NCBI GenBank assembly: GCA_038046805.1
Contig: JBBSVO010000003.1
Location: 93,963 to 157,962, forward strand
Direction of reading: 5' to 3'
DNA length: 64,000 bases
Origin: Candidatus Micrarchaeota archaeon
Lineage (GTDB): Archaea > Micrarchaeota > Micrarchaeia > Anstonellales > Bilamarchaeaceae
How positions within the stretch are numbered: position 1 is the stretch's first letter; each line of letters begins with the position of its first letter. Below, piece by piece: positions 22,232-57,326 of the stretch. The notes under the pieces were generated by a model. The model searched no databases. It was not told the origin of the DNA and saw nothing but the letters and a program-made list of their open reading frames with translations. Both the position numbers and the translations under genes were made by a program.

Positions 22232-22375
22232 GAAATCAACTTTCAGTGTTCTAATGTTTTCGGATAAAACTTTTAAAGCAACGGTTATCCGTTGAAGTAG
22301 CTACCCATAGGCACAACCACATAATTTTTAAACAGAATTCGACTCATTCTTAGAATACCATTTACGCTTAGCTGT

Positions 22376-22630
22376 GGGCCCGTAACTCAGCTTGAACCTT
22401 TTGACTTCTGAAACCTAAAGGCAAAACGTTTCATGTCAAGAACGACGTTTCGTTCTTGAGCATGATCATGAACGGTTCGCCGTTCATGACATCGAAAAGC
22501 CCTTAGGTAGCACAAGTCAAACGGTTTCTGAAATGGTAGAGTGCCGGACTCTTATGGTCCTGAGTCTTGAGTTTAGAGTCTTGGGATTTAAGAAATCCGT
22601 TTGCCAAGGGTTCAAATCCCTTCGGGCCCG
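22376..22630 (+). tRNA. tRNA-Lys(CUU) with two introns: about 140 nt in the D-loop (22391-22530) and about 40 nt at 37/38 (22555-22594)
   Basis: Acceptor GGGCCCG/CGGGCCC, D stem ACTC/GAGT split by the insert, anticodon stem CCGGA/TCCGT (one C-U mismatch) with loop CT-CTT-A, T arm AAGGG-TTCAAAT-CCCTT. Confidence 0.75.
22434..22493 (+). repeat. tandem-hairpin module type A, copy inside the tRNA-Lys D-loop intron
   Basis: TGTC-AAGAACGA-CGTT-TCGTTCTT-GAGCATGATC-ATGAACGG-TTCG-CCGTTCAT-GACATC. By eye, 50 of 60 positions are identical to 40936-40995. Confidence 0.8.
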
Positions 22631-22677
22631 TTTTATGTTTCCGGTAGCGGGCTCCCTGCCTCCGGTCAACGGATGGC

Positions 22678-29064: not shown

Positions 29065-29116
29065 CCAATTGAACGGCAAACCGTTCAATGGGCGCGATGA
29101 ACGTTTCGACGTTCAT
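29065..29116 (+). repeat. tandem-hairpin module type B, left copy
   Basis: CCAATTGAACGG-CAAA-CCGTTCAATGG, spacer, ATGAACG-TTTCGA-CGTTCAT. A third hairpin, CGTGAC-TTGCG-GTCACG, lies at 29147-29163. Confidence 0.7.
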
Positions 29117-29387
29117 CCGCGTTATTTTGTTTTCAATTCCAGATCCCGTGACTTGCGGTCACGATCTCTCGATGTATTTTCTAATACATCAAGATTCCAA
29201 AATTCCTTCAGCGCCAAGTCTACCCAAAAAGAAAATTTCAAACAAAAATTCAGATTTCTTCAAGGGTCGGGCTGGATATGTGGAATTAGCACGTAGTTGT
29301 GGTTGTTATGCCCGAATCCTTGCTTGCCATTTTTATCAAATAAATTACAGTTCAGGTTCTATTTAAAGGTTTGTCACGGAAAACGCG

Positions 29388-31701: not shown

Positions 31702-32124
31702 TCAATGCATCAGAATCTTCTTTGGAACAGATAGTATTTTTTCCTCTCGTTTTCCAACTGCAAGCTCAGCAACTTCGGAATTCAAAAATTCATCGCGCTG
31801 AAGCGTCAGCCATCTGGCAACCTTGAACGGAACTCCGGCTCTTTTGAACATATCCCTTAATTCATTTTGTTCTGACTGGGAAAACGGCTCCCTGCCAGAT
31901 GAAATCCGATCGTTTGCAGTATTAAGGAGCAGTGAAAAACGTTTGATATCTAATTCTGAGGATTTTCCAGTGCCAAGTGCTGTAAGAAGTCCGCGCGCGA
32001 GAATTGTGTTTCGCTTCTTTGTTTTATCAAGAAGTCGTTTCAGGCTGGAGGCATCCCGCTCTCCGAGTTTTCCGAATCGTGCAGAATCAAGCACCCTTTT
32101 CGCGAAATCTTCAAAGAATCCCAT
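31702..32124 (-). CDS. hypothetical protein
   Basis: 140-aa ORF with no recognised motif. Confidence 0.45.
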   Translation of the reverse strand: MGFFEDFAKRVLDSARFGKLGERDASSLKRLLDKTKKRNTILARGLLTALGTGKSSELDIKRFSLLLNTANDRISSGREPFSQSEQNELRDMFKRAGVPFKVARWLTLQRDEFLNSEVAELAVGKREEKILSVPKKILMH

Positions 32125-32149
32125 AAAAATTCCTCTAAATTTTTATACT

Positions 32150-32199
32150 CCAATTGAACGTCGCAACGTTCAATGGACCATAAAACGTTTCAACGTTTT
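32150..32199 (+). repeat. tandem-hairpin module type B, right copy
   Basis: CCAATTGAACG-TCGCAA-CGTTCAATGG, spacer, AAAACG-TTTCAA-CGTTTT. Same orientation as 29065-29116. Confidence 0.7.
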
Positions 32200-32229
32200 A
32201 TTGGTGTCGAAAATCTCGGATTTTCTCCA

Positions 32230-32288
32230 TGTCGCGAACGACGATTCGTTCGCGAGCATGTTCATGAATGCAATGCATTCACGACATC
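32230..32288 (+). repeat. tandem-hairpin module type A, intergenic copy
   Basis: TGTC-GCGAACGA-CGAT-TCGTTCGC-GAGCATGTTC-ATGAATGCA-A-TGCATTCA-CGACATC. Stems differ from the other copies by paired (compensatory) substitutions. Confidence 0.75.
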
Positions 32289-32318
32289 CCATAATATAAT
32301 CCCCGTACAAACTGGGCG

Positions 32319-40391: not shown

Positions 40392-40439
40392 AATAAGGTA
40401 AGTGAACTACCCACGGCTGAAGCCGTGGGCTTCCACGAC

Positions 40440-40913
40440 TCAAAAGAAAGCAGATAGTTGCGCCTGTTTTGCTTCCTCCCTTGCGTCGTAAATTGACTGG
40501 TTTAATTCCTTGAACTTATGCCCTTCAATGTAATGCCCTATGGTATCTGATTTTACGTTGCTTATGCTCCTGCAAAACTTTCCGGGAGACCAGAAATGTC
40601 CTTTCCCGAATACGTTTCTCAGCCATGGAAAAGCGGCAAAAACCGAATGGCTTGACCTGCCCTTGAAAAGCCTCATGGCTTCTGACGGACTCGTATTGAA
40701 TGGCAGGGAAACGAAAAGATGCACGTGCTCGGAGGCAATTTCCATGGAGTGAATCAAAATATTGTATTGGTGGGCAGTGTTAATTATGCTCTGCCACAAA
40801 AACCGTTTCACATCACCAACCATTACTGCTTTTCTGTATTTCGGGCACCACTCAAGATGAAACTGATTTAAACCCACGCTCCTATTACTTGATACAAAGC
40901 TTACGCTAGTCAT
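40440..40913 (-). CDS. tnpA: IS200/IS605 family Y1 (HUH) transposase TnpA
   Basis: 157 aa. LEWCPKYRK..., HUH motif HVHLFV, FKGRSS, WSPGKF, and catalytic Tyr region IGHYIEGH. Confidence 0.85.
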   Translation of the reverse strand: MTSVSFVSSNRSVGLNQFHLEWCPKYRKAVMVGDVKRFLWQSIINTAHQYNILIHSMEIASEHVHLFVSLPFNTSPSEAMRLFKGRSSHSVFAAFPWLRNVFGKGHFWSPGKFCRSISNVKSDTIGHYIEGHKFKELNQSIYDAREEAKQAQLSAFF

Positions 40914-40935
40914 TTCAACAACTCCGTAGCCGTCT

Positions 40936-40995
40936 TGTCAAGAACGACGAATCGTTCTTGATCATGCTCGTGAACGAAACGTCGTTCACGACATC
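40936..40995 (+). repeat. tandem-hairpin module type A, copy next to the tnpA start
   Basis: TGTC-AAGAACGA-CGAA-TCGTTCTT-GATCATGCTC-GTGAACGA-AACG-TCGTTCAC-GACATC. Begins 23 nt from the tnpA ATG. Confidence 0.8.
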
Positions 40996-41114
40996 TCTTG
41001 GAAGGTTGTGCGCCGCCTGCGGCGGCGCGCCGGCTACAGGGCATAAAAACAGTGAAAAAATAAGAAGAAAACGAATTTTTGACATAAAAAAAGAAGGGGG
41101 TCGCTTTCATCTAC

Positions 41115-41170
41115 GCGAATGAACGGCGCTCCGTTCATTGCGCCCATTGTTCGAGCCGTCGAACAATCGG
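41115..41170 (+). repeat. hairpin pair related to type B modules
   Basis: GCGAATGAACGG-CGCT-CCGTTCATTGCGC followed by CCATTGTTCGA-GCCG-TCGAACAATCGG. A GC-only hairpin, GCGCCGCC-TGC-GGCGGCGC, lies at 41010-41028. Confidence 0.6.
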
Positions 41171-41194
41171 GACGGCTAAAGCCGTGTTGCTGAG

Positions 41195-41548
41195 TTGTTT
41201 CTGGGTCAGGTTTCCCGCGCCCCCCTTAAACCCCCTCGACTAAATTGGGGTGCAATCATATTATTTCTATTGGCATGGGCAATATCAATAAGTCCAGCGA
41301 TAGAAAGCATGCTTGGCAAAGAAGTCCGGTATAATCCGTTTGACCTGGAAAAAAATTGGCAAAGACACGTGATTGGCATTGGTTTTATTCTGGCTGCGTT
41401 TTATTATAATTTTTCTCAATTCGAATCCAGGCTCGGATTAAAAACAGGTCCATTTGACATGGGCATACTCTTTTTCGGAGCATTCGCTGTGGTCGCATAT
41501 ATCCTAAATGAATGGATTGTGATGATATCGACAAATGAATTTGCCTAG
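41195..41548 (+). CDS. small membrane protein (hypothetical), start uncertain
   Basis: 117-aa ORF with three hydrophobic helices. The ORF-track start is TTG. Confidence 0.4.
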   Translation: MFLGQVSRAPLKPPRLNWGAIILFLLAWAISISPAIESMLGKEVRYNPFDLEKNWQRHVIGIGFILAAFYYNFSQFESRLGLKTGPFDMGILFFGAFAVVAYILNEWIVMISTNEFA

Positions 41549-48589: not shown

Positions 48590-49155
48590 AAACAGACACC
48601 AGAAGAAGAGAAATAGTGCGCCAGATGGTACACGCACTCATAGGACTGCTTATGATTGCAATCATGTTTTTGCTTGGGCGGGGATATCTTATAGCATTTC
48701 TATTTTTTGTTACGATAATAGGATTATTGATAATAAATTTCAGGACAAGTTGGGGAAAATTTCCAATTGCAGAATGGTTTGAGAAAAAACTTGAAAGAAA
48801 CCATGTGAGGTTTCCCGGATACGGCTCATCGTGGTACGTGGTCGGAATAATCCTGATGGCACTGGTAATTCATGATCCAAATAAGATAGCTGCAGGAATT
48901 TTTGTTCTTGCAATTGGGGATGCAGCCTCAACCATTTTCGGGATGAACGGAACGCACAGGTGTCCGTATAATGAACGAAAGACGTTTGAGGGTTCGGCAG
49001 CATTCTTCGCATTTTCACTGATTGCGTTCATTTTCATCGGATGGAAGGCGATTCCACTCGCACTTATTGCGGCAATCGTAGAGAGCCTTCCACTTCCATA
49101 TGATGACAACATTGTGATTCCGGTTGTTGCAACCTCATTTTTCTTAATTGTTTGA
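48571..49155 (+). CDS. polyprenol/dolichol kinase-like (CTP-transferase 1 family) membrane protein
   Basis: Multi-TM, 194 aa, with GDAASTIFG...RKTFEGSAAF typical of dolichol/phytol kinase-like proteins. Confidence 0.6.
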   Translation: MGEEKIETDTRRREIVRQMVHALIGLLMIAIMFLLGRGYLIAFLFFVTIIGLLIINFRTSWGKFPIAEWFEKKLERNHVRFPGYGSSWYVVGIILMALVIHDPNKIAAGIFVLAIGDAASTIFGMNGTHRCPYNERKTFEGSAAFFAFSLIAFIFIGWKAIPLALIAAIVESLPLPYDDNIVIPVVATSFFLIV

Positions 49156-49158
49156 TAT

Positions 49159-49254
49159 CCCGAGACAGAAAAGTTTTTCCGTCTCGATCTATAGTGAACC
49201 AACGTTGTAGGATATTCGCCTGAAAGTCGGAGTTATTTAGTTGGTTCAGTATAC
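49159..49254 (-). repeat. structured repeat element, copy 2 (inverted relative to 5170-5357)
   Basis: The reverse complement reads GTATACTGAACCAACTAAATAACTCCGA...GGTTCACTATAGATCGAG...GGAAAAACTTTTCTGTCTCGGG. This matches both ends of the 5.2 kb copy, but without that copy's central hairpin pair. Confidence 0.6.
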
Positions 49255-56753: not shown

Positions 56754-56966
56754 GAACAGTCGGTAACATAATCGCCAATATTTGCTGTTTATCGCTATTA
56801 TGATAGCTACAATTTGATAAACTTCGCGATTACAATAGCAACATTTAGAGAATATCCGCTAATACGATGGCGACATAGACGTAAAATTCAATACCTGCAT
56901 GAGCGTTTCTTCTCTTAATCTGAAGAAAAACCACACAGCAACCTTTAAAATCCTTAGATTACAGTA

Positions 56967-56987
56967 ATCCACATTGATAATGTGGAT
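56967..56987. promoter_or_regulatory. perfect 9-bp-arm palindrome ATCCACATT-GAT-AATGTGGAT just upstream of the Zn-ribbon gene ATG
   Basis: Read directly from the sequence. Ends 6 nt before the ATG at 56994. Confidence 0.35.
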
Positions 56988-56993
56988 AACAGT

Positions 56994-57326
56994 ATGGCAA
57001 ACGTCGTTTGCCATATATGGAAATGTGGCGATAACATGGTTGAACTGAAACGCACCATAAGGTGTTCCAACTGCAATAGTGAAGCTAACTTCTTTCTATC
57101 GTCGGATATGGGCATGAGCGAACTGCAGATTCAGGGAAGATGCCCAAAATGCGGCAATTCAATGCAGGTTACGTTTAGTATAGTGGAATCAGGAACAGGC
57201 AGTTCACCTGGACATCAGTCCTCATCCGATAGCGCATTTCAGGAATCAGGGCTTGCTGGGATAGATGAAACGATGTTCACACCAGATATAACCAGCGATG
57301 CAATAAAAGATTTGATTGATGGATAA
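56994..57326 (+). CDS. zinc-ribbon protein (hypothetical)
   Basis: CSNC...CPKC four-Cys ribbon followed by an acidic Ser-rich tail. The ATG at 56994 is preferred over the GTG at 56982. Confidence 0.5.
   Translation: MANVVCHIWKCGDNMVELKRTIRCSNCNSEANFFLSSDMGMSELQIQGRCPKCGNSMQVTFSIVESGTGSSPGHQSSSDSAFQESGLAGIDETMFTPDITSDAIKDLIDG

What the first reader, a model, noticed from the sequence alone, without database searches (positions are those of the whole stretch)
40936..40995. A 60-nt tandem-hairpin module is shared by a tRNA intron, an intergenic site and the flank of the only transposase gene
Three segments are co-linear: 22434-22493 (inside the tRNA-Lys D-loop intron), 32230-32288 (intergenic) and 40936-40995 (23 nt from the tnpA start). 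All read TGTC, hairpin 1 (..GAACGA-loop-TCGTTC..), GA(G/T)CATG.TC, hairpin 2 (.TGAA.G.-loop-...TTCA.), GACATC. The tRNA and tnpA copies are identical at 50 of 60 positions by eye. Differences in the stems are paired: AA..TT versus GC..GC in hairpin 1, and A-T versus G-C and G-C versus A-T in hairpin 2. The loops vary freely, so the hairpins themselves are under selection. A diverged copy sits at the equivalent place in the tRNA-Thr intron (3973-4023). The related tRNA-Gly intron lacks the module, consistent with insertion. Y1 HUH transposases act on ssDNA hairpins, and their REP/RAYT and PATE derivatives spread hairpin repeats in bacteria. An archaeal counterpart that colonises tRNA introns has not, to my knowledge, been described.
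Basis: partly seen in the sequence, partly recalled or inferred. Interest (0 to 1): 0.85.

Follow-up and report, generated by a model that had tools for sequence, protein, structure and literature searches.

The report
Tiny mobile double-hairpin DNA in Micrarchaeota
The 58-base two-hairpin module is a real, multi-copy, mobile DNA parasite of Micrarchaeota (ultrasmall archaea) that drops without target duplication into non-coding spots such as a tRNA intron tip and the leader of an IS200 transposon, but it is a passenger in that transposon, not its recognition hairpin.

Summary
Three co-linear copies lie at 22434-22491, 32230-32286 and 40936-40993, and a diverged relative lies at 3973-4027. The same 57-63 nt element occurs in 5 Micrarchaeota MAGs and about 110 metagenome contigs, giving 96 non-redundant copies.

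Its anatomy is TG-[10-bp hairpin]-N-CATG-N-[10-bp hairpin]-CA, and the two arms are inverted copies of each other. In 65 distinct copies, 99.2% of stem cells pair and 15 of 20 pairs show compensatory changes. G·T pairs are almost absent, and both strands score equally. This points to a DNA-level structure rather than an RNA.

The element is mobile. Ten filled/empty comparisons show precise insertion with no target duplication, after an A. The orthologous tRNA-Lys intron of a related genome is empty at this site and carries a different double-hairpin element 5 nt away.

The proposed link to tnpA fails. Close IS200 homologues are co-linear but lack the module. The IS has its own, different LE/RE hairpins (CACGGC-TTYA-GCCGTG). 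The module sits inside the IS leader together with a second, different double-hairpin insertion, and the whole composite IS has since moved.

I read this as a REP/MITE-like non-autonomous element family whose mobilising enzyme is unknown.

The parts
40936..40993 (.). Type-A double-hairpin element (58 nt, TGTC...GACA). It is inserted in the leader of the IS200-type element, 22 nt upstream of the tnpA ATG.
   Evidence: 82 bits on both strands. The site is empty in the homologous IS copies L017-L023.
22434..22491 (.). Type-A double-hairpin element at the apex of the tRNA-Lys D-loop intron.
   Evidence: 82 bits. The orthologous intron in L138 is empty here.
32230..32286 (.). Type-A double-hairpin element (57 nt) in a 195-nt intergenic spacer that is packed with other hairpins.
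   Evidence: 65 bits.
3973..4027 (.). Diverged or degenerate double hairpin at the equivalent apex of the paralogous tRNA-Thr D-loop intron. It lacks the TGTC/CATG/GACA signature.
   Evidence: The covariance model gives 28.9 bits, E 1.6e-5.
41109..41170 (.). Type-B double-hairpin element (a different family: CGCG-hairpin-GCG then CCCATTG-hairpin-CAATCGGG). It is inserted at the foot of the IS LE hairpin.
   Evidence: The IS homologues read 'cagccgtgagatgaaag' uninterrupted.
29065..29123 (.). Type-B double-hairpin element, intergenic.
   Evidence: The covariance model gives 23.6 bits.
40402..41245 (-). IS200-type insertion sequence. It has an LE hairpin, a leader, tnpA and an RE hairpin ending in GTAGTTCAC, and it carries both double-hairpin passengers.
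   Evidence: A second copy, 99% identical over 845 nt and with different flanks, is in L139/L141. The ends match homologues L017-L020.
40440..40913 (-). tnpA, a 157-aa Y1 (HUH) transposase.
   Evidence: Pfam PF01797, E 3.5e-29. There are 107 homologues.
22376..22630 (+). tRNA-Lys(CUU) gene with a D-loop intron of about 146 nt and an intron of about 40 nt beside the anticodon.
   Evidence: The fold closes the acceptor stem, z -9.2. Rfam gives a partial tRNA hit at 22556-22630. ARAGORN misses the gene. The exon/intron boundaries were read by eye, not computed.
49151..49210 (.). Type-C host repeat with an empty TA|TA site. The same repeat carries type A at that point in MAG UBA10214.

Best explanation
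The module is one copy of a family of very small non-autonomous mobile DNA elements that is widespread in Micrarchaeota. The modal length is 58 nt and the range is 57-63 nt.

Shown:
- Each element is an inverted dimer of a hairpin unit of about 29 nt: TG-[TC NN GAACGN / CGNN loop / NCGTTC NN GA]-N-CA|TG-N-[second arm]-CA.
- The two arms fold independently as perfect Watson-Crick hairpins on either strand.
- Copies are confined to non-coding DNA.
- They insert precisely, without target-site duplication, preferentially at 5'-S-K-A|T-3'.
- They often land in or beside other hairpins: the apex of a tRNA intron, the arms of other copies, other small repeats, and the leader of an IS200.

Inferred:
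- The conserved single-stranded TG / N-CATG-N / CA motifs, together with the CG-rich tops of the stems, form the recognition surface for an enzyme supplied in trans.
- That enzyme excises and pastes the element through a hairpin or cruciform (single-stranded) intermediate.
- The centre, GA-N-CA|TG-N-TC, mimics an end-to-end junction, GACA|TGTC. This fits a circular or dimer-junction intermediate.
- The enzyme is unknown. A Y1/HUH-type transposase is the leading candidate class, because it gives no duplication and depends on hairpins. The adjacent IS200 TnpA is probably not the enzyme.

In the tRNA genes the element is harmless, because it rides at the tip of an intron that is spliced out. In the IS it is a hitch-hiker.
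For: - Multi-copy and lineage-restricted: 13 of 16 genome hits lie in 5 Micrarchaeota MAGs. There are 113 metagenome stretches, including 8 loci on one 1.37-Mb contig, and 96 non-redundant copies.
- Structure: 99.2% of cells paired, 15 of 20 pairs compensatory, and only about 9 of 1300 cells are G·U-type. One long whole-element hairpin is disfavoured, at 76% paired, which is below the shuffles. The arms are inverted copies. ssDNA folds give about -20 kcal/mol on both strands. The covariance model scores both strands equally.
- Mobility: ten filled/empty pairs with exact TGTC...GACA boundaries and no duplication. A 2-nt flank match occurs in only 7 of 96 copies. The orthologous tRNA-Lys intron is empty. 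Copies are nested inside other copies (L039, L125, L134).
- Target: A at -1 on at least one side in 90 of 96 copies.
- Exclusion from coding: 23 of 96 copies lie in stop-to-stop ORFs, against 82% of bases.
- A second family (type B) with the same architecture and behaviour.
Against: - No transposase, autonomous parent element or circular intermediate was identified.
- Target specificity is much weaker than the tetra- or pentanucleotide targets typical of IS200/IS605.
- The hairpins abut the element ends (2 nt), unlike IS608-type geometry.
- Several 'empty' partners (L016, L099) are paralogous copies of other short repeats, not orthologous loci. Only the tRNA-Lys case is a clean orthologous comparison (L138); the IS case compares homologous IS copies.
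- Copy numbers per genome are lower bounds from exact-pattern scans.
- A host function (protein binding, RNA stability) is not excluded and could coexist with mobility.
Confidence: 0.78

Rival explanations
1. The module would be the cognate hairpin substrate of the neighbouring Y1 (IS200) TnpA, dispersed through the genome as in REP/RAYT or as an IS200/IS605-derived PATE or MITE.
For: - tnpA is a genuine Y1 HUH transposase.
- The elements insert without duplication and depend on hairpins, as ssDNA transposons do.
- The arms form inverted doublets, as in REPINs.
- More than 65% of Micrarchaeota genomes carry IS200/IS605 (PMC13343696).
Against: - The module is absent from co-linear leaders of the closest IS homologues, so it is a secondary insertion and not an IS end.
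- The IS LE and RE share a different hairpin, CACGGC-TTYA-GCCGTG, found only at IS ends.
- The IS termini (TTTAGTCG...GTAGTTCAC) and flanks are unlike TGTC...GACA.
- No tnpA was found in the 16 genome-contig loci then held.
- The module lies on one side of tnpA only, and there is no GTAG-type motif.
Confidence: 0.1
2. The module would be a structured non-coding RNA or a cis-regulatory RNA motif, for example an intron-borne RNA, a terminator or a stabiliser. On this view it is conserved for an RNA function and is not a mobile DNA.
For: Covariation is strong and junction nucleotides are conserved. One copy lies inside a transcribed tRNA precursor, where it folds at the intron tip.
Against: - There is no Rfam match.
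- G·U pairs are almost absent, and both strands are equally good. That is typical of DNA palindromes and not of RNAs.
- Copies show no consistent orientation or position relative to genes; they sit in convergent, divergent and tandem spacers.
- Presence/absence differs at otherwise conserved sites.
- No T-run follows the hairpins.
Confidence: 0.05
3. The module would be a DDE-transposase MITE, consisting of two 29-bp terminal inverted repeats with TG...CA tips.
For: The whole element is an imperfect inverted repeat, and its TG...CA termini recall many DDE elements.
Against: No target-site duplication appears in any of the ten filled/empty pairs or statistically. The arms are more different from each other than chance would give. 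No larger parent with these ends was seen.
Confidence: 0.03

Closest known systems
REP / BIME / REPIN repeats of bacteria (mobilised by RAYT Y1 transposases)
   Same: Both are short, extragenic, multi-copy palindromes. Both occur as inverted doublets, keep their hairpins through compensatory change, and are non-autonomous.
   Different: There is no GTAG motif, and no flanking single-copy RAYT: the nearby Y1 gene belongs to an ordinary IS200 that has other hairpins. The host is archaeal. The elements are fixed 58-nt units with exact TG...CA ends and demonstrable clean insertions.
IS200/IS605-derived MITEs and PATEs (palindrome-associated transposable elements; described in haloarchaea and cyanobacteria, from my own knowledge)
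   Same: Both insert without target duplication, and the hairpins are essential.
   Different: These have no terminal inverted symmetry. Their LE and RE hairpins match a parent IS, and they insert 3' of a specific 4-5-nt target. Here no parent is known, the arms are inverted copies, and the target is only S-K-A|T.
Double-hairpin elements (DHEs) and other mobile hairpin repeats of fungal, algal and sponge mitochondrial DNA (Paquin, Laforest and Lang 2000, from my own knowledge; cited in PMC2800124, PMC2670323 and others)
   Same: Both are units of about 50-60 nt made of two hairpins. Both are found in intergenic DNA and introns, nest within one another, and have no known enzyme.
   Different: The sequences are unrelated. 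Those elements are organellar and these are archaeal and chromosomal. This is a resemblance of form only.
Correia/NEMIS, RPE, ERIC and BOX small repeats of bacteria
   Same: All are miniature non-coding insertions that can sit inside transcribed regions.
   Different: Correia elements have TA duplications and a DDE-type origin. RPEs insert in frame in genes. Here there is no duplication and copies are strictly excluded from coding sequence.
Intron transposition among archaeal tRNA genes (Thermoproteales; Fujishima et al. 2010, from my own knowledge)
   Same: Homologous BHB introns occur in different tRNA genes; here they are in the D loops of tRNA-Lys and tRNA-Thr.
   Different: In that case the mobile unit is the intron. 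Here a separate 58-nt DNA element has landed inside the intron.

Membership tests
IS200/IS605 end (LE/RE hairpin) | The hairpin is an integral, conserved part of the IS, present in homologous copies at both ends. | tested here: not met
   Homologues L017-L023 are co-linear across the site but lack the module. The real LE/RE hairpin is CACGGC-TTYA-GCCGTG.
REP/RAYT system | A single-copy RAYT gene flanked on both sides by REPs in inverted orientation. | tested here: not met
   The module lies on one side only and inside an IS200 that itself exists in at least 2 copies. None of the 16 genome-contig loci then held has a tnpA.
REP/RAYT system | An imperfect palindrome of 20-40 nt with a conserved 5' GTAG tetranucleotide. 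| tested here: not met
   The conserved motifs are TG, TC...GA, N-CATG-N and CA. There is no GTAG.
REP/RAYT system | Many extragenic copies, often as inverted doublets (REPIN). | tested here: met
   96 non-redundant copies, depleted from ORFs. The arms are inverted copies.
MITE of a DDE transposon | Terminal inverted repeats. | tested here: met
   The left and right halves are imperfect inverted copies with TGTC/GACA tips.
MITE of a DDE transposon | A target-site duplication of fixed length. | tested here: not met
   Ten filled/empty pairs show none. A 2-nt flank match occurs in only 7 of 96 copies.
IS200/IS605-derived MITE / PATE | No target duplication. | tested here: met
IS200/IS605-derived MITE / PATE | Ends and hairpins match those of a parent IS in the same genomes. 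| tested here: not met
   The only IS in the window, and its relatives, have unrelated ends and hairpins. No longer element with type-A arms was found in the loci. Whole genomes could not be scanned.
IS200/IS605-derived MITE / PATE | Insertion 3' of a specific tetra- or pentanucleotide. | tested here: inconclusive
   Only A at -1 (71% per side; at least one side in 90 of 96) and a weak S-K preference at -3 and -2.
Mitochondrial double-hairpin elements | A unit of about 50-60 nt made of two adjacent hairpins, dispersed and mobile, in intergenic DNA and introns. | tested here: met
   This is a resemblance of form; no sequence relation was tested or is expected.
Structured RNA family | A match to a curated RNA model, or strand-specific RNA-type covariation that includes G·U intermediates. 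| tested here: not met
   No Rfam hit. About 0.7% G·U-type cells. Equal scores on both strands.
Any transposon | The enzyme that moves it is identified. | not testable with these tools
   This needs genome-wide co-occurrence statistics and biochemistry.

The most novel reading that the evidence does not exclude
Micrarchaeota would host a whole guild of nested double-hairpin DNA parasites of about 45-60 nt (types A and B and others), moved by a so far unrecognised hairpin- or cruciform-specific recombinase and not by the IS200 TnpA. The mechanism would involve a tiny dumbbell or circular intermediate with a CA|TG junction and would paste after a single A without duplication. That would make them among the smallest self-contained transposition substrates known, the first prokaryotic counterpart of mitochondrial double-hairpin elements, and a driver of tRNA-intron growth in DPANN archaea.
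Probability: 0.3. Interest if true: 0.8.

Novelty: new variant of a known kind. Interest (0 to 1): 0.6.

Why it matters
Small hairpin repeats such as REPs, MITEs and organellar double-hairpin elements are common, but how most of them move is still unknown. This family has three useful properties.
- It has exact ends, clean empty sites, heavy covariation and a minimal size, so it makes a convenient substrate for finding the responsible enzyme in a lineage with genomes of about 1 Mb and few candidate genes.
- It shows that DPANN genomes, usually described as streamlined, tolerate layers of nested selfish DNA.
- It shows that archaeal tRNA introns and IS leaders act as safe harbours, which bears on how the long and multiple tRNA introns of these archaea grow.

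Two practical points follow. These repeats break assemblies: one scaffold has a gap exactly at such an element. They also hide tRNA genes from standard finders.

Tried and rejected
- Rfam, at gathering thresholds on the whole window and at permissive thresholds on the tRNA-Lys region, found no family for the module.
- ARAGORN on 13 related loci found no tRNA near other copies. It cannot see intron-rich tRNAs, so this result is weak.
- tblastn of TnpA against the 16 genome-contig loci found nothing.
- A viral-contig scan for the element gave 0 hits, so there is no sign of a viral or plasmid parent.
- I tested whether the element folds as one long hairpin. It does not: the arms are less complementary to each other than chance.
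- I looked for a consistent asymmetry between the arms that would give the element an orientation, as LE and RE would. None was found, so orientation relative to replication or genes cannot be scored.
- I looked for an autonomous parent, meaning two arms separated by a gene. I found only monomer arms and nested copies.
- A 2-bp crossover model (AT core, serine-recombinase-like) fits only about half the sites (46 of 96 have A and T on both sides), so I did not adopt it.
- I first read L033/L016 and L066/L099 as strain polymorphisms. Longer alignments showed they are paralogous copies of other short repeats, so I cite them only for the insertion boundaries.
- The 900-aa neighbour protein had few homologues, but one gave the orthologous locus.
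- Literature searches found nothing on such elements in Micrarchaeota or DPANN.

Full report
**1. What is in the sequence**

The repeat finder lists them as a 3-copy family: 22431-22493, 32227-32289 and 40933-40995. A degenerate pattern search finds them against 0.00 expected by chance.

The exact unit, defined below from empty sites, is TGTC...GACA. Its coordinates are 22434-22491, 32230-32286 and 40936-40993.

As single-stranded DNA, either strand folds into two 10-bp hairpins with 4-nt loops, at about -20 kcal/mol and z -4 to -7. The anatomy is:

TG-[TC NN GAACGN / loop / NCGTTC NN GA]-N-CATG-N-[TC N TGAANN / loop / ... GA]-CA

**2. The host and the wider family**

An exact-pattern scan of one genome per species returned 16 loci. 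Thirteen lie in five Candidatus Micrarchaeota MAGs. The three bacterial hits lack the second hairpin and the GACA end, and I take them to be chance matches.

A metagenome scan that left hairpin 2 unconstrained returned 113 stretches. Eight of those loci lie on a single 1.37-Mb contig. After removing redundancy there are 96 elements, of 58 nt (modal) and 57-63 nt (range).

The source population appears to be Hainich groundwater, judging by the contig names of identical TnpA copies.

**3. Structure is conserved at the DNA level**

I aligned 65 distinct 58-nt copies and counted pairs.
- 99.2% of stem cells pair.
- 15 of 20 pairs carry changes on both sides.
- 227 cells are double-changed, against 57 ± 7 in shuffles.
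- Slid controls pair only 22-46%.

Hairpin 2, which the search left free, takes many sequences and always stays paired: ATGAACG, AAGGTCGA, GTAATCGA, ATGGACGA, GTGATCGA, GCGAAC and others.

G·U-type pairs are almost absent, at about 9 of 1300 cells. A covariance model scores both strands equally. That is what DNA palindromes show, and it is not what RNAs show. Rfam has no match.

The alternative of one long whole-element hairpin is disfavoured. Only 76% of cells pair, which is below every shuffle, so the two arms differ from each other more than chance would give.

Read from the outside, both arms carry CGNN loops. The element is therefore an inverted dimer of a unit of about 29 nt. Monomers of the form TGTC-hairpin-GACA also exist. 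The centre, GA-N-CA|TG-N-TC, looks like an end-to-end junction, GACA|TGTC. This last point is inference.

**4. It is an insertion, and it has nothing structural to do with the IS ends**

tnpA (40440-40913, minus strand) encodes a 157-aa Y1 transposase (PF01797). The nearest homologues, at 82-83% identity, have upstream and downstream regions co-linear with the window's. More distant homologues, at 70% and 65% identity, still match across the insertion point. The closest homologues share these features with the window:
- an LE hairpin, CACGGCTTCAGCCGTG;
- a GC-rich hairpin;
- an RE hairpin, CCCACGGCTTTAGCCGTGGG;
- the end GTAGTTCAC.

At the position of the module, however, they read 'GAGA|AGACGGCTACGG', where the window reads 'GAGA[58 nt]AGACGGCTACGG'.

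A second block of about 60 nt (41109-41170) also interrupts the window's LE, right at the foot of the LE hairpin. It consists of two hairpins of another sequence family, which I call type B.

A second copy of the same IS is 99% identical over 845 nt, carries both passengers, and lies between different flanks in L139/L141. This fixes the IS at 40402-41245. It also shows that the IS moved after it acquired the passengers.

The IS hairpin occurs only at IS ends and is never dispersed. None of the 16 genome-contig loci then in hand has a tnpA in the up to 8 kb held.

**5. Mobility and target**

I joined the flanks of each element and searched for uninterrupted matches. This gave ten filled/empty pairs. 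All have boundaries exactly at TGTC...GACA and no duplication:

| Filled | Empty | Junction |
|---|---|---|
| L033 | L016 | gtttgcta\|tgtagcta |
| L066 | L099 | aaaggga\|agcgcac |
| L005 | window 49156-49205 | — |
| L041 | L014 | — |
| L031 | L092 | — |
| L088, L070 | L063 | — |
| L039 | L040 | nested in the arm of another copy |
| L125 | L116 | nested in the arm of another copy |
| L134 | L065 | nested in the arm of another copy |
| window 40936-40993 | IS homologues | see section 4 |

L016 and L099 turned out to be paralogous copies of other short repeats, not orthologous loci. I use them only to fix boundaries.

Across all 96 copies, a 2-nt match between the flanks occurs in only 7. The base before the element is A in 71% of ends and on at least one side in 90 of 96 elements. 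There is a weak S-K preference at -3 and -2, so the target is roughly S-K-A|T.

Only 23 of 96 copies lie in stop-to-stop ORFs of at least 150 aa, although such ORFs cover 82% of the bases. Many of the 23 lie close to an ORF end.

**6. The tRNA intron**

Folding 22375-22631 closes the acceptor stem and makes the D-loop intron a long rod with the module at its apex. The paralogous tRNA-Thr intron does the same with a diverged double hairpin (covariance model 28.9 bits).

The decisive comparison uses the syntenic locus of a related Micrarchaeote (L138). The gene order there is a 942-aa protein, tRNA-Lys and AlaRS, and the region is 83% identical in nucleotides to the window. Its intron reads '...caaaacgtttca|tcgaa...' without type A. 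It carries instead a 60-nt type-B element 5 nt further on ('tcgaa[...]aagccc'), at a point where the window is uninterrupted ('tcgaaaagccc').

Two different double-hairpin elements therefore landed independently at the same intron tip. A scaffold of the same region from another assembly (L137) has an N-gap exactly there.

**7. More families**

Type B (CRCG-hairpin-GYG followed by CCCATTG-hairpin-CAATNGGG) recurs in seven other loci, with covarying stems.

A 'type-C' repeat shows a shared hot spot:
- it is empty at TA|TA in the window (49151-49210);
- at the same point in 5216-5350 it carries a different 44-nt double hairpin;
- in MAG UBA10214 it carries type A there.

The 195-nt spacer at 32123-32286 is a chain of five hairpins. 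The window has 65 hairpins with at least 8 paired bases in the stem, against 30-35 in shuffles.

**8. Mechanism**

Shown: hairpins are required, the ends are exact, there is no duplication, the target is A-biased and often in or near a hairpin, and the element is non-autonomous.

Inferred: a trans-acting enzyme recognises the hairpins together with the TG / CATG / CA single strands and works through a single-stranded or cruciform intermediate. The enzyme class is open.
- Y1/HUH is the leading candidate by analogy. Against it, the geometry (hairpins 2 nt from the ends), the weak target and the inverted symmetry differ from IS608-type elements.
- A DDE enzyme is unlikely, because there is no duplication.
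- A simple 2-bp-core recombinase fits only about half the sites.

**9. Comparison and novelty**

In behaviour the family is closest to REP/REPIN and PATE-type repeats. In form it is closest to mitochondrial double-hairpin elements. It fails the defining tests of each on at least one count (see the membership table).

I found no description of such elements in Micrarchaeota or DPANN in the library. I file it as a new variant of a known kind (small non-autonomous hairpin repeats), of good but not exceptional interest.

Noticed in passing
window 40402-41245; L139 1159-2001: The IS200-type element has at least two copies, 99% identical and with different flanks, and both carry the same two double-hairpin passengers. 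The IS therefore stayed mobile with 120 nt of foreign hairpins in its LE and leader, one of them at the foot of the LE hairpin.
   Followed up: partly
window 41109-41170 and 29065-29123; L138 3930-3989: A second family of double-hairpin insertions of about 60 nt (type B: CRCG-hairpin-GYG followed by CCCATTG-hairpin-CAATNGGG). It has covarying stems, and its own empty site in the window's tRNA-Lys intron.
   Followed up: partly
window 49151-49210 and 5216-5350: A conserved 'type-C' small repeat (tatcccga...ggttcagta|tag...cgagNcgg-loop-ccgNctcgggata) whose TA|TA point is a hot spot. It is empty at 49 kb, carries a 44-nt double hairpin of yet another kind at 5234-5277, and carries type A in MAG UBA10214.
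   Followed up: partly
window 32123-32286: The 195-nt intergenic spacer is almost entirely a chain of five hairpins. They include a CCAATTG...CAATGG / ACCATAAA...TTATTGGT pair that recurs in L075, L039 and L124, and that is split by a type-A insertion in L040/L067.
   Followed up: partly
window 22376-22630 and 3917-4205: tRNA-Lys(CUU) and tRNA-Thr each carry a homologous D-loop intron of about 150 nt plus a second intron. ARAGORN and Rfam (gathering threshold) miss both genes.
   Followed up: partly
window 6119-6232: Another tRNA-like gene with an insertion of about 38 nt in the T-loop region. That insertion shares the motif AGACTGGAAAC with 1170-1193 (beside tRNA-Gly) and 4132-4155 (inside the tRNA-Thr gene).
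   Followed up: no
L137 6990-7082: A scaffold from another assembly has a run of N exactly where the double-hairpin element sits in the tRNA-Lys intron. These repeats appear to break short-read assemblies.
   Followed up: no
window 56964-57015: Another intergenic pair of adjacent perfect hairpins (GTAATCCACATTGATAATGTGGATAAC and TATGGCAAACGTCGTTTGCCATA) with no copy in the loci held.
   Followed up: no
L021 3001-4741: A more distant TnpA homologue (65% identity) sits in a full IS605-type unit with a tnpB (OrfB_IS605 / Cas12f-like) gene. The window's IS has tnpA only.
   Followed up: no
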